A stretch of DNA of 64,000 nt from Saccostrea cucullata (Eukaryota): the NCBI RefSeq assembly GCF_032062105.1, contig NW_026933693.1, positions 248,001-312,000 on the forward strand, in the 5' to 3' direction. The translations under genes and the position numbers were made by a program. The notes below the pieces were generated by a model. It was not told the origin of the DNA and did no database searches. It saw only the letters and a list, made by a program, of their open reading frames with translations. This document shows positions 25,407-32,800 of this stretch, piece after piece (positions within the stretch are counted from its first letter, which is position 1; each line of letters begins with the position of its first letter).

Positions 25407-26869
25407 CTGAAAAAATAATAAAGTAATTAGAAAAAATGTGATTTATGAACAATATAATATACTGACATTTGCAACCAAAGGTACTTAATTTAAAACTGTT
25501 TATGTCTTAATTAAAATATTTTTTAAATATTATAACATCAGCATTTGTAATAGGACTGCAAGTCATAAAATAAGATTAAAGAAACATAATAACACACTAA
25601 AATCTAAAGGATAAACCTGAAAAAAAATGTTTTATTAGTAACGGTTCGCATCCATACTAGTAAATGAAAAGTTGTGTAAAACTTCAAACAATAACAAAAC
25701 TAACAATATTAACTATGTATCATTCATACATCAGCATTCTTAACAATCATAATGAAATACAACAAAAACACAATTTCTGGCATGTCACTTTATTGAAACC
25801 AAAAAACAAAACTTGATCAACAAGTGTATACAAGCTTACAACAACAGAAGTTCAAGCAATTGAAACAGGGGGTGTCTGGAATCTGAAAATTCACACACAG
25901 TTAGTGTCAGTAAGGTACAGGATTTCAACACAAAGTAAATGGGTAAAATCAATTCCATATATTATACAGCAACATAAACAGTATTAGTCAAATTGGTTAT
26001 ACATGTATTATATTAACAGTAGATATTGCTTAAAATAAGATTTGACTTAATTAAGAAACTAAAGATTAATATCAGTGTTAGACAATAAAATAAAAGAACA
26101 ATTCTTAGTGTTGAACAATAAAAATGAACAAAATACAACTGCTCATAAAACTTCAAATAAGATTCAATGCCACGATAAACTGAATATCTCGAGTAATGTT
26201 AGTAAATTGTCAGTACATATACAGTCAGGAAAATAACTCTGCTCCTCAGAATACTAAATGAAGTGTTAGAATTACTTAGGAAAAGAGCAATATACCGGTA
26301 CATGTAGTATACTGTAATCAGAGCAAGGATTCATTAGAACAATTTCACTTGCAACACTACCTTCCATCTTCAGTCTGGTCAGATTCCAATTTCTGTTTTT
26401 CATTCTTTTTACATGCTTATAGAGTTTCAAAGCTGTCATATATTATATGCATGTACATTTTAGTCAGGTTAGATTTTGCACATCATCATTCATCACAAAC
26501 TCACAATGCCTGTCTATGCTCATTTACTGTATATTAATTATCATCTGTGAAGTCAGTACCTGGTAGTTCAACATGCTTATGATTTTTTTAGTTCTGTGTT
26601 ACATCTATGTTGAAATAGGAATTCAAGCCTCTTCATTAATTATATTGTCAGTTTTTACATACTGTCATTCTTCTTACCTGTTTCTGAATAATAACTACTA
26701 CTTCTGCATTATATGTACAAGGAGCTTATAGGAATTCATGCCTTTTCATCCTCTATTCGTACATTTCCCTGGTCACTTGATGCTACTTTAAGTATCTTGG
26801 TTACACATGCTTGTTCTTGACCTCTGGCTACACTACACACTCGAGAACACAACCTCATGCAGTTATTAC

Positions 26870-29800: not shown

Positions 29801-32800
29801 TAACTAGCCATTCCCTGAGCAGTAGGAACCACACACCATGCTACTTACAGGAGGTGGCACCTCTGTAGCAGATTGGTCCGTTTCCTGCCAACAACAGACA
29901 CAGAGAAATATAACTATCATTTTACTTTACAGCCATACATGTATATACACGGACAAGTTAGATGACTCACACTATGTAGACTCCACTAAACTTCAAAGAT
30001 TTTTAGAAACATCTAGACACAACTCACATGCAAGCCAACTTACATCAGCATCAGTAGTTTCAGTCTCTTTTATATCCTGACAACAAATACATGTGTATGG
30101 TGTACAATCTTCATCAAATCTAATACATCATTTACCAACTGCATTGCAAATTACATCTCCTAGTTTTTTCCCCTCTTCTTAAAAATCTCATGAATACGAA
30201 AAATTTTCCACACAAAAATTTCTCAAGTTAGTTAAAATTTCCTTTGAATCACTTTAGGTTCATAAAAGTGAGTAATTGATTTCTTTTTTTTTTTAAACCT
30301 ACAGAATTTACCTTTGTTTCCTCTGCATCTTTGTCCAATGGTTTCTCCTGTGAGAAGATAAATACAAAATCAACAAGGAAACATTAATGCTGAAGCTGTA
30401 TCCTTTAGAATTCTTGTGAAAAGAGATTTTTATGTTGATTTTCCAAATAATATCTTTGCTGATCAGATCATGCTGTTAGTTCACAAAAACTTTCCTGGTG
30501 TATAATCTTCTAGTACAGTGTATCTATATGTGTCTCACTTGTGTAGCATTTTTTTTAAGCTCAATTATGGAATGTTAGATTCTGGTACTAGGGTATTTAG
30601 AGGGACACCCCATGCTCAAGTAAGAAAAGGTTTCCTCCAGCAAGTGATTATTACTCACTTCTTTCTGACTACATATAAATAGAAGACTGTGTACAGGTAA
30701 AAGTGACCAATTACTTCCTTTTTACAGTGGTTTGTCACAAACATTGTGTTCTCTGGGAGATCGATCTGACTTCTGACATACAATGTAGAAACATCACACC
30801 ATGCAAGGAGTTCTGATTTCTCTATGGCAGCAAAAAAGTGGTTTGAGGTAGAAAATCTCTTTGAATTCTACACTGCAATTTCACAAAAGGAACATTTCAC
30901 ATTCAAAGAGTAAAACTCAAGTTTCTAATTTCACTCAGTGTTGCAGTTCTTCAAGAAAGACTGTAGAGGGATTTTCTTCACACCATGCTACTAAAGGAGG
31001 TGTGGATCAAATTTCTTTCACTACAGTTGCAATGTGGATGACATTGATAAACCCACTCCATGCACATTTCTATTAAAAGAGGGAGTGGATCAAAGTTCTT
31101 CTGTTATGGCAATGGGACATCATCCCCTCAACCCATGCCTGCTATACCTCCTCTTCTTTCCTTGCTTCCTCATTCTCTTCCTTTACATCTCCTCCTGCCT
31201 TCTCATCAGCACCCTCTGGTGGTGACCCCTCCTCTTTTGAGTCACCCTCTGACCTTTCACCTTCCACCTTATCCTCTGATGGTACAGCCTCTTTTTCACT
31301 TGTCTCCTGATCAGCTTTCTCTCCTGTTTCTGCTTTTTCCTCCTCATTTTTCTTTGCATCTTCAGCAGCAACATCCTCAATCAAAACAGCTTTTTCCTAC
31401 AGTTTATCATTCATCACAAACTATTAACCATTTAAATGATAAATGTGTACTTTAATGTTTAAGCTTTTCCCCCATCCTACTACAATTTTGGATATTCTAG
31501 TTCTTTATATACAAGCATTTGAAATAATACTGTTAGTAAAATGCAAAATTTCCAATTATTAAAAAAATATCAAAATACTTAAGTATATATAAACTCCTGT
31601 AAAACTTTTTAACTAACTGCACATCTCTTCCACCAATCACACCCAATGGATTAAAACTGTACTACCGGTATATACTAATTTTGGTACACTTTTTTTTTAA
31701 CTTAACAAAATTAAAAATTAAAATAGTAAGTGTTTTTAAATTTTACAGCATCTTGTTCTAAGTGACAGTTTCAAAACAACTGAACGAGTAAGGACATAAT
31801 AACTAACAAGTGATCATCAGAATCGTGATTGGTGGACGAGAAGACCTATGAACTCTACAGGTCATGCCCATGCTCCAATACCTCATCCTCCTTCTCTCTT
31901 TCATCCTGTATAAACACAATATCAAGTTATCACCCAGGGGTTTTTTGTTCCCAAACAATATTGATTTATCATCCAAGTTCTTTGCATTGACAATATAAAT
32001 CCAGCACCAGATTTTAGGTATACATTTACAATATCTTATAATTAGAATACTTTTTCAGAAATTTTCATTTGAATCCATCAACCTTTCTTTTAACGCATTT
32101 CTGTTCATTCCATATTCATATAACGTCCTAAATTCTCTTGAAATAAACGAATGATAATACACTAACAGTTAATGTGATAATGCAAAGGGAATAAATTGGT
32201 GACAAACTGCTGCAAAGTAACTCTTAGTTTAGTAATAAATAATCAGTCATTTATTTTTATGAGTGCATACTGCATATATAGTTTTAAATATGAGCAAAAC
32301 TTATTTTTAGTGTAATTATACGAGGCAGTCTGTTCAAGAAAAATTCATGATGAGTAATTGTAAAGTTGCTTGTGCTAAATGCCTTTTCTTCTTGAAAAAT
32401 AAATACCTTCAGAGCTTCTAAAATGTGTTGAAAGCTCTAAAGCTAACTCAAGAGAATAAGAGCTTGATGAGTATGCACTTATAAAAGAAATGACTTCTGA
32501 ACTTTGAACTCCATGCCCATGCTGGTATACCTCATCTTTCTTTTCTTCTTCTTCCTGATAAACATGGGAGACCAAGACATTTTTAGAGTCTTAACTATAA
32601 TAATGGTATCCTTATCTCTAACTTATTAGCAAAAAATATTTTTTTATCATCTTAATACATGTTAGATGACTTGGAACCACAGCCACCATTGTAAGAATGT
32701 GTTGATTATGTAATACAGAACCAATCATAAGGACTGCTGGAAACATTCATTTTATAAATTGATGTGAATATTTACCCCTGTCACTGTAACAGATGCCTGA

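What the first reader, a model, noticed from the sequence alone, without database searches (positions are those of the whole stretch)
26850..32530. Rbfox-type (T)GCATG motifs placed just downstream of the cassette-exon donors
Seen: on the sense (-) strand, GCATG lies within ~20 nt after the donors of exons ending at 32531 (two copies), 31882 (two copies), 31148, 30044 (TGCATG), 29849, 29132, 27893 and 26870 (TGCATG). It lies within ~100 nt after those ending at 29445, 29290 and 28932. Established: (U)GCAUG is the Rbfox binding element, and downstream intronic sites promote inclusion in muscle and neurons. Inference: the array is co-regulated by the molluscan Rbfox ortholog, which supports these being real regulated exons.
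Basis: partly seen in the sequence, partly recalled or inferred. Interest (0 to 1): 0.7.

Follow-up and report, generated by a model that had tools for sequence, protein, structure and literature searches.

The report
Rbfox sites on mollusc SH3BGR microexons
A mollusc gene for an SH3BGR-family (likely actin-capping) protein carries a row of small optional exons for an acidic tail, and the introns behind them are packed with GCATG words that likely let the splicing factor Rbfox switch the tail on in muscle or nerve, a known mechanism in a new animal group.

Summary
All 11 donors carry GCATG where stated. The gene is an SH3BGR-family member with 15 small internal exons and one large one encoding an acidic tail. 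GCATG starts at +8 to +13 behind 8 of these 16 donors, against 0.63% of 44,897 donor-like sites genome-wide. It is the most enriched 5-mer of the array's introns (26 sense, 4 antisense) and is absent behind the three core donors. Seven of the 11 named donors have splicing support from relatives' proteins or RNA contigs, which also show exon skipping. The genome encodes Rbfox and RBM24/38 (SUP-12) RRMs, and troponin I shows the same strand-biased cluster. Best reading: Rbfox intronic enhancers that help weak donors (0.7); binding, tissue and direction are untested. Corrections: two of the three distal sites lie nearer the next acceptor and may repress; some sites are duplicates; exon 27893 breaks the frame; donor-like sites show no genome-wide excess. 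New lead: four sites read GCATGGTGTG, nine of twelve letters plus one of the C. elegans egl-15 Rbfox/SUP-12 composite (its central ten). A known mechanism in a new gene and phylum.

The parts
35421..35477 (-). E1, first coding exon of the SH3BGR-family gene (ATG at 35465); no GCATG within 130 nt of its donor
   Evidence: matches the N-terminus of P0005/P0035
33164..33349 (-). E2, core exon, PF04908 SH3BGR; no GCATG within 130 nt of its donor
   Evidence: (E 6e-17)
32776..32880 (-). E3, core exon, end of the thioredoxin-fold domain; no GCATG within 130 nt of its donor
32531..32554 (-). c1, 24-nt cassette exon, weak donor GAG|GTATAC
   Evidence: present in P0032, P0034, P0005, P0033; absent in P0001, P0035
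32512..32522 (-). two GCATG at +9 and +15 behind c1
31882..31905 (-). c2, 24-nt cassette exon, weak donor GAG|GTATTG, likely duplicate of c1
   Evidence: present in P0005, P0033; absent in P0032, P0034, P0035, P0001
31863..31873 (-). two GCATG at +9 and +15 behind c2
31148..31396 (-). c3, predicted 249-nt acidic exon, weak donor GAG|GTATAG; splicing not verified
   Evidence: no protein relative found
30469..31138 (-). six GCATG in the intron behind c3 (+10, +85, +160, +344, +533, +675); the first three are 75 nt apart
30979..30988 (-). GCATGGTGTG composite, +160 behind c3
30795..30804 (-). GCATGGTGTG composite (preceded by T), +344 behind c3
30312..30347 (-). c4, 36-nt exon, no GCATG within 130 nt
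   Evidence: joined to c5 in run X3 (loose end)
30044..30076 (-). c5, 33-nt exon
   Evidence: joint c5-c6 in X3
30027..30032 (-). TGCATG at +12/+13 behind c5, inside 74 donor-proximal bases with no listed difference in run X1
29849..29884 (-). c6, 36-nt exon
   Evidence: joints c5-c6 and c6-c7-c8 in X3
29832..29841 (-). GCATGGTGTG composite at +8 behind c6
29687..29713 (-). c7, 27-nt exon, no GCATG in its intron
   Evidence: letters between the c6 and c8 sides of a joint in X3 (table 5c)
29445..29489 (-). c8, 45-nt exon
   Evidence: joined to the large exon in X2 (c9-c15 skipped) and probably to c9 in X3
29360..29364 (-). GCATG at +81 behind c8, 27 nt before the c9 acceptor
29290..29337 (-). 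c9, 48-nt exon
   Evidence: joint c9-c10 in X3
29197..29202 (-). TGCATG at +88/+89 behind c9, 37 nt before the c10 acceptor
29132..29164 (-). c10, 33-nt exon
   Evidence: joints c9-c10 and c10-c11 in X3
29120..29124 (-). GCATG at +8 behind c10
28992..28996 (-). GCATG at +136 behind c10, 35 nt before the c11 acceptor
28932..28961 (-). c11, 30-nt exon; acceptor verified, donor not
28875..28879 (-). GCATG at +53 behind c11, kept in run X2 among 3 substitutions and 1 insertion in 30 bases
   Evidence: table 7, compared by eye
28602..28628 (-). c12, predicted 27-nt exon, no GCATG in its intron
28308..28340 (-). c13, predicted 33-nt exon, GCATG at +100, +123, +127
27893..27929 (-). c14, predicted 37-nt exon that breaks the frame (poison exon, decayed exon or assembly error)
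27876..27885 (-). GCATGGTGTG composite at +8 behind c14
27620..27649 (-). c15, predicted 30-nt exon, no GCATG in its intron
26870..27448 (-). large acidic exon (579 nt) ending in a stop codon at a predicted weak donor TAG|GTAATA
   Evidence: acceptor used in X2; donor not verified
26412..26861 (-). five GCATG behind the large exon (+10 TGCATG, +60, +129, +294, +454)
25770..25882 (-). T1, predicted alternative terminal exon with an AATAAA signal; not verified
25386..25406 (-). T2, coding start of the default last exon (six residues and a stop)
   Evidence: same six residues end P0001, P0005, P0032, P0034, P0035

Best explanation
The GCATG words are likely Rbfox binding sites that act as intronic splicing enhancers for an array of cassette exons building the acidic tail of an SH3BGR-family protein. 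Shown: the gene structure, the phase-0 array, splicing of c1, c2 and c4-c11 in relatives, exon skipping, the motif enrichment and the presence of an Rbfox RRM. Inferred: in cells with high Rbfox (muscle, neurons) the protein binds 8-15 nt behind donors that pair poorly with U1 and steadies U1 snRNP there, so the exons are included; without it E3 splices to the last exon T2 and gives a short protein with no tail. The sites 27-37 nt before the c9, c10 and c11 acceptors would instead dampen those exons, giving combinatorial rather than all-or-none inclusion. Duplication of an exon-plus-donor unit spread some sites, and selection likely kept them while the flanks diverged. The product would be a predicted actin pointed-end binder with a tail of adjustable length and charge.
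For: Enrichment: 8 of 16 donors vs 283 of 44,897; GCATG is the top 5-mer of the array's introns, 25 vs 4.5 expected; 26 sense vs 4 antisense; 1 sense and 1 antisense in the 2,575 nt of the E1-E3 introns. Donors with a proximal site match the CAG|GTAAGT consensus less well (5,5,5,7,7,6,6,6 of 9) than those without (7,7,7,6,7,7,7,6), one-sided P 0.017. Skipping: nested isoforms P0035 / P0032, P0034 / P0005; c8 joined to the large exon in X2, c4-c8 and c9-c11 joined in X3; four Sinanodonta woodiana isoforms with different tail blocks. Conservation in runs 90-99% alike: no listed change in 4 of 4 GCATG sites covered by intron-spanning contigs; in X1 all 11 listed changes of the c5-c6 intron fall in the distal 85 nt, none in the proximal 74 nt (P 0.001). 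Trans factor: an exon matching RBFOX1/ASD-1 RRMs (E 2e-7). Positive control chosen beforehand: the troponin I locus has 17 sense and 0 antisense GCATG in 1,600 nt around one exon. Mechanism from papers (passages): downstream GCAUG usually enhances (PMC11874969, PMC2777236); Rbfox recruits U1 at weak donors through U1C (PMC10514471); GCAUGC was the strongest neuronal and GUGUGU the strongest muscle enhancer 6-mer in a worm reporter screen (PMC13199693).
Against: No binding, tissue or knockdown data; contigs cannot give inclusion levels. Donor-like sites genome-wide show no excess of GCATG over its reverse complement (283 vs 252, P 0.19). Only 7 of 26 sites are TGCATG, against 266 of 583 in background. 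Four array exons have no site within 130 nt, yet c4 and c7 are spliced. The sites are not independent: c1/c2 and c5/c14 share flanks (2 of 28 pairs). 4 of 4 intact sites is weak at about 10% intron divergence (roughly 0.12 by chance), and the tables list only part of the differences (10 of 12 in the X1 contig). The troponin T loci show no strand bias (56/49, 33/25, 31/27), and the troponin I exon is not shown to be alternative. If the tail of P0033 is read-through of the c2 intron, that relative has no GCATG at +9/+15 (inferred from its codons; the tail has no match in the window). A site at +8 abuts the U1 footprint and could hinder rather than help.
Confidence: 0.7

Rival explanations
1. Rbfox (or another GCAUG binder) uses the donor-adjacent sites to repress: bound at +8 to +15 it blocks U1 snRNP, so the exons are skipped where Rbfox is high.
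For: Six of the eight proximal sites start at +8 to +10, next to the U1 pairing region. Three more sites lie 27-37 nt before acceptors, the repressive position (PMC2777236, passages). The egl-15 composite represses its exon (PMC2777236).
Against: Proximal sites go with weaker donors, which need help rather than blocking. RBM24 promotes U1 recognition from an element at +13 to +29 (PMC5558909, abstract and passages). Muscle SH3BGR of vertebrates is the form with the acidic tail (PMC12827327, passages).
Confidence: 0.12
2. The motifs are passengers: one ancestral exon-donor-GCATG unit was copied many times and the word has no current role.
For: c1, c2 and the end of c3 share GAG|GTAT..GCATGG; c6, c10 and c14 share GTAAGT(A/G)GCATG; three sites behind c3 have a 75-nt period; no genome-wide excess at donor-like sites.
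Against: Flanks beyond +20 are alike in only 2 of 28 pairs and upstream flanks in 0 of 28, so the word outlasted its surroundings. Two unrelated donor types and the large exon all carry it. Collapsing to 2-3 events still gives P 2e-3 to 4e-5. The proximal 74 nt behind c5 show no listed change in a diverged run. Troponin I shows the same word.
Confidence: 0.1
3. The sites are functional but read by another factor or at another level (another RNA-binding protein, a DNA-binding factor such as p53-type CATG half-sites, or an RNA hairpin).
For: TGCATG is under-represented and GCATGG over-represented (10 of 26 vs 113 of 583).
Against: Strand bias 26 to 4 argues against a DNA element or self-pairing; a 2009 review names the Fox-1 family as the only known specific readers of (U)GCAUG (PMC2777236, passages); zebrafish Fox-1 selected plain GCAUG (same paper).
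Confidence: 0.08

Closest known systems
Rbfox downstream intronic enhancers at weak donors (GFPT1 exon 9, EPB41 exon 16; PMC10514471, passages)
   Same: GCAUG in the intron just behind a short cassette exon with a weak donor; several copies; muscle-type gene
   Different: 16 exons in one array; sites as close as +8; mostly AGCATG/GGCATG rather than TGCATG; mollusc; no functional test
C. elegans egl-15 UGCAUGGUGUGC element bound by ASD-1 (Rbfox) and SUP-12 (PMC5558909, PMC11874969, passages; PDB 2mgz)
   Same: its central ten letters occur four times in the array; both protein families are encoded in this genome
   Different: in egl-15 it lies upstream of an exon and represses; here two copies lie at +8 behind donors and two deep in an intron; only one copy has the leading T and none the final C
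Vertebrate SH3BGR versus SH3BGRL/-2/-3 (PMC12827327, passages)
   Same: thioredoxin-fold PF04908 domain; one form with a glutamate-rich tail, one without
   Different: vertebrates split the two forms between a muscle gene and ubiquitous paralogs; here one gene can make both by splicing (a second, tail-less paralog also exists)
Drosophila Rbfox1 muscle splicing programme (PMC8742874, passages)
   Same: Rbfox acting on sarcomeric genes in a protostome, troponin I among them
   Different: SH3BGR/Sh3beta is not mentioned in that paper's main text (0 occurrences)

Membership tests
Rbfox-regulated cassette exons | (U)GCAUG enriched in flanking introns on the sense strand | tested here: met
   26 sense vs 4 antisense, 4.2 expected; top 5-mer
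Rbfox-regulated cassette exons | sites beside alternative, not constitutive, exons | tested here: met
   8 of 16 alternative donors vs 0 of 3 core donors
Rbfox-regulated cassette exons | exons are spliced and are skipped in some transcripts | tested here: met
   c1, c2 by proteins of relatives; c4-c11 joined and c9-c15 skipped in contigs; c3, c12-c15 and the donors of c11 and the large exon untested
Rbfox-regulated cassette exons | motif conserved in orthologous introns | tested here: inconclusive
   no listed change in 4 of 4 covered sites and a clean 74-nt block behind c5 in close relatives only; no distant intron DNA found
Rbfox-regulated cassette exons | an Rbfox protein is encoded | tested here: met
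   G000:C6524 exon matches RBFOX1, RBM9 and ASD-1 chains; only the first RRM exon was checked
Rbfox-regulated cassette exons | Rbfox binds the sites and inclusion depends on it | not testable with these tools
   needs CLIP, minigene or knockdown
Rbfox-regulated cassette exons | inclusion follows tissue Rbfox level | not testable with these tools
   only contigs of unlabelled tissue were offered
egl-15-type Rbfox/SUP-12 composite element | GCAUG directly followed by GUGUG | tested here: met
   4 of 26 sites, 0.011 expected; copies may be duplicates of each other
egl-15-type Rbfox/SUP-12 composite element | a SUP-12/RBM24/RBM38 protein is encoded | tested here: met
   G000:C8353 exon, best matches RBM38 and SUP-12 chains, E 2e-28 to 5e-25
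egl-15-type Rbfox/SUP-12 composite element | upstream position and repression of the exon, as in egl-15 | tested here: not met
   the four copies are 8 nt behind donors or over 450 nt before the next acceptor; direction unknown
egl-15-type Rbfox/SUP-12 composite element | cooperative ternary complex on the RNA | not testable with these tools
   needs EMSA or structure
SH3BGR family (PF04908) | Pfam domain above the curated cut-off | tested here: met
   E2 62.1 bits, cut-off 21
SH3BGR family (PF04908) | actin pointed-end binding | not tested
   shown for human SH3BGRL proteins (PMC12827327); no fold or complex was run here

The most novel reading that the evidence does not exclude
The Rbfox + SUP-12/RBM24 composite element, solved structurally only in nematode egl-15, is an ancient protostome module, used here in a mollusc as a donor-adjacent enhancer. 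Together with plain GCATG sites it runs a 16-exon charge rheostat that turns one SH3BGR gene from a short ubiquitous-type actin pointed-end capper into a muscle-type form with a tunable acidic tail, doing by splicing what vertebrates did by gene duplication.
Probability: 0.25. Interest if true: 0.6.

Novelty: new member of a known kind. Interest (0 to 1): 0.36.

Why it matters
Rbfox control of tissue splicing is well known in vertebrates, flies and worms; four searches of the held library found no paper on it in molluscs or on SH3BGR (listings only). This 6-kb array is a compact test case: 16 exons, with and without sites, in one gene. If the composite is functional, Rbfox/RBM24-type cooperation is not a nematode speciality. 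If inclusion tracks muscle, it gives a natural series of tails for asking what the acidic extension of SH3BGR does at actin pointed ends, which PMC12827327 leaves open for C-terminal variation. It does not change any general principle.

Tried and rejected
Genome-wide excess of GCATG behind donor-like sites: none (283 vs 252 for the reverse complement, of 44,897 sites). Genome-wide donor-adjacent composite: 9 matches, 2 in this gene, the other 7 equal to the 6.9 expected; GCATGGTGTG overall 990 vs 1,473 expected from a Markov model, so no general programme is visible this way; 30 of the 990 loci were viewed and none looked donor-adjacent. Intron DNA of distant relatives: two scans of metagenome contigs found none. 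Protein relatives of the large exon (337-2000 aa) and of c3 (45-146 aa): none; weak negatives. Fox-1_C (PF12414) search: no match; the RRM was found by a recalled short motif instead and then checked against the PDB. A second copy of this locus in the assembly: none, so the c14 frame could not be checked. Troponin T, Rbfox and RBM24 loci: no clear strand bias. RNA contigs were laid only on 28870-30270, 4 of the 7 runs offered; c1-c4, c12-c15, the large exon and the last exons were not covered, and contig depth was not used to rank exons. An Srrm4-type or QKI-type signal was looked for only through unbiased k-mer counts: CTAAC 10 vs 2.7 (P 5e-4, not significant over 1,024 words), no clear TGC signal at acceptors. 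Earlier findings of the scan: none returned. One paper on Rbfox tethering (PMC3264914) was not held. No supplements were read.
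Full report
1. Observation. Eight donors have it at +8 to +13 (two of them with a second copy at +15), three at +53, +81 and +89.

2. The gene. Exon 33349-33164 scores 62.1 bits on PF04908 SH3BGR. Its closest proteins are 87-89% identical and unnamed as to organism; the nearest named ones are from the mussels Potamilus streckersoni and Sinanodonta woodiana at 65%, so the host is inferred to be a bivalve. After three core exons come 15 internal exons (14 of 24-48 nt, one of 249 nt), a 579-nt exon ending in a stop at its donor, a predicted alternative last exon at 25882 and a default last exon at 25406. 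All start in phase 0 and all but c14 (37 nt) are multiples of three. Each in-frame exon adds net negative charge, -1 to -27. The genome holds one other SH3BGR gene, which stops right after the domain.

3. Are the exons real and optional? Among cluster members of the relatives (printed), P0035 and P0001 go from E3 straight to the six-residue last exon, P0032 and P0034 add c1, and P0005 adds c1 and c2. Four Sinanodonta isoforms differ in tail blocks. Contigs of 4 of the 7 RNA or probable-RNA runs offered were laid on 28870-30270. They are 90-99% alike, so they come from a close relative or divergent stock. In X3 the joints match the predicted introns c5-c6 (159), c9-c10 (125) and c10-c11 (170); the letters between c6 and c8 match c7 (22 of 26) and a loose end matches c4 (25 of 27). 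In X2 a loose end at the c8 donor matches the start of the large exon (27 of 29), which skips c9-c15. These matches were read by eye. So 7 of the 11 named donors have splicing support; 31148, 28932, 27893 and 26870 do not.

4. More than chance. 283 of 44,897 AGGTAAGT sites in the genome have GCATG starting at +7..+19; 8 of 16 alternative donors here do (P 3e-14). GCATG is the most enriched of all 5-mers in these introns (25 vs 4.5 expected from 571,656 background bases), 26 sense to 4 antisense, while the E1-E3 introns hold 1 and 1 in 2,575 nt. Shuffles and circular shifts never reached the observed values. The sites are not all independent: c1/c2 and c5/c14 share downstream flanks (2 of 28 pairs; 0 of 28 upstream), and alignments show two donor types. 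Collapsed to 2-3 events the result is P 2e-3 to 4e-5. Against a general rule: donor-like sites genome-wide carry GCATG no more often than its reverse complement (283 vs 252, P 0.19), so the signal is gene-specific.

5. Conservation. In X1 the 11 listed changes in the c5-c6 intron all fall in the distal 85 nt and none in the 74 nt that hold the TGCATG (P 0.001, a boundary set after looking; 10 of the contig's 12 substitutions are listed). The site behind c11 is intact in X2 amid 4 changes in 30 bases; two more sites show no listed change. At about 10% intron divergence (15 of 159 in one X2 contig) four intact pentamers are weak evidence alone. No distant intron DNA was found. One possible counter-case is the unexplained tail of P0033 behind c2.

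6. Trans factors and a control. A short motif recalled for the Rbfox RRM found an exon at G000:C6524 whose only PDB matches are RBFOX1, RBM9 and ASD-1. A second recalled motif found an exon at C8353 whose best matches are RBM38 and SUP-12. Troponin genes were chosen as a control before looking: the troponin I locus has 17 sense and 0 antisense GCATG in 1,600 nt around one exon (1.5 expected; the window was drawn round the cluster), whereas three troponin T loci show no bias.

7. Mechanism. Established (passages read): downstream GCAUG usually enhances and upstream represses (PMC2777236, PMC11874969); Rbfox recruits U1 snRNP to weak donors through U1C (PMC10514471); RBM24 can do so from +13 to +29 (PMC5558909); Rbfox overcame a weak donor in MYH9 through a non-consensus site (PMC13158602). 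Seen here: donors with a proximal site match the consensus less well than those without (P 0.017). Inferred: Rbfox at +8 to +15 rescues these donors in muscle or neurons, while the three sites 27-37 nt before acceptors tune c9-c11 down. The product would switch between a short form and forms with an acidic tail of up to about 430 residues. Human SH3BGRL proteins cap actin pointed ends, and muscle SH3BGR differs by such a tail (PMC12827327). Confidence 0.7. Rivals: repression by crowding U1 (0.12), passenger duplicates (0.10), another reader (0.08).

8. The composite. Four of the 26 sites read GCATGGTGTG (0.011 expected), the central ten letters of the egl-15 element UGCAUGGUGUGC bound jointly by ASD-1 and SUP-12 (PMC5558909, PMC11874969). 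I noticed the pattern after reading the sequence, the copies may descend from one or two ancestors, and the position differs from egl-15. Two of only 9 donor-adjacent composites in the genome are in this gene; the other 7 match chance. It is a lead, not a finding. In mammals GU-rich words next to GCAUG are attributed to hnRNP M of the LASR complex (PMC11874969), which is an alternative reader.

9. Novelty and verdict. Searches for SH3BGR + alternative splicing + Rbfox (6 papers), Rbfox + microexon + mollusc (2), Rbfox + oyster + alternative splicing (5) and RBM24/RBFOX/GUGUG terms (6) showed nothing on this gene or on mollusc Rbfox targets in titles and abstract starts; the library lacks most subscription papers and no supplements were read. 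The feature is real and probably functional, a new member of a known kind. Interest 0.36; 0.6 if the composite and the splicing-made muscle form are confirmed (probability 0.25).

Noticed in passing
G000:C12240:919500-921100 (L099, L100): Troponin I locus: 17 sense and 0 antisense GCATG around the exon at 920297-920417; an upstream acidic open stretch at about 919634-919778 has matching phases and may be a mutually exclusive or extra exon.
   Followed up: partly
window 27893-27929 (-): c14 is 37 nt; inclusion gives a stop at codon 18-22 with any of three later exons, yet it keeps a full donor and a composite site: poison exon, decayed exon or assembly error.
   Followed up: partly
window 26870 and 25882 / 25406 (-): The large exon ends with its stop codon exactly at a predicted donor; two candidate last exons follow, suggesting coupled choice of tail and 3' UTR.
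   Followed up: partly
window 30984-31138 (-): Three GCATGG-bearing units with a 75-nt period in the intron behind c3.
   Followed up: partly
window 27270-27440 (-): Short tandem EEP(V/A)K-like repeats at the start of the large exon; arginine runs near its end. P0046 has a similar repeated acidic/basic block, with no significant tblastn match.
   Followed up: no
window about 42590-43090 (+): A GC-rich coding exon for a coiled-coil protein on the opposite strand; lebercilin-like by recall only, not tested.
   Followed up: no
window about 37220-37345 (+) and 35600-37800: A small coding-like exon on the + strand; this gene and the SH3BGR gene appear to lie head to head or close to it.
   Followed up: no
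G000:C14567, C8444, C16860: Troponin T is present in three near-identical copies, probably uncollapsed haplotypes; genome-wide counts are therefore inflated unevenly.
   Followed up: no
P0033: Spliced E1-E3-c1-c2 followed by an 84-residue tail with no match in the window: another exon, intron read-through or a chimeric contig.
   Followed up: partly
L035 (G000:C14187): A tandem repeat rich in sense GCATG (29 in 2 kb), a reminder that such clusters can also be satellite-like.
   Followed up: no
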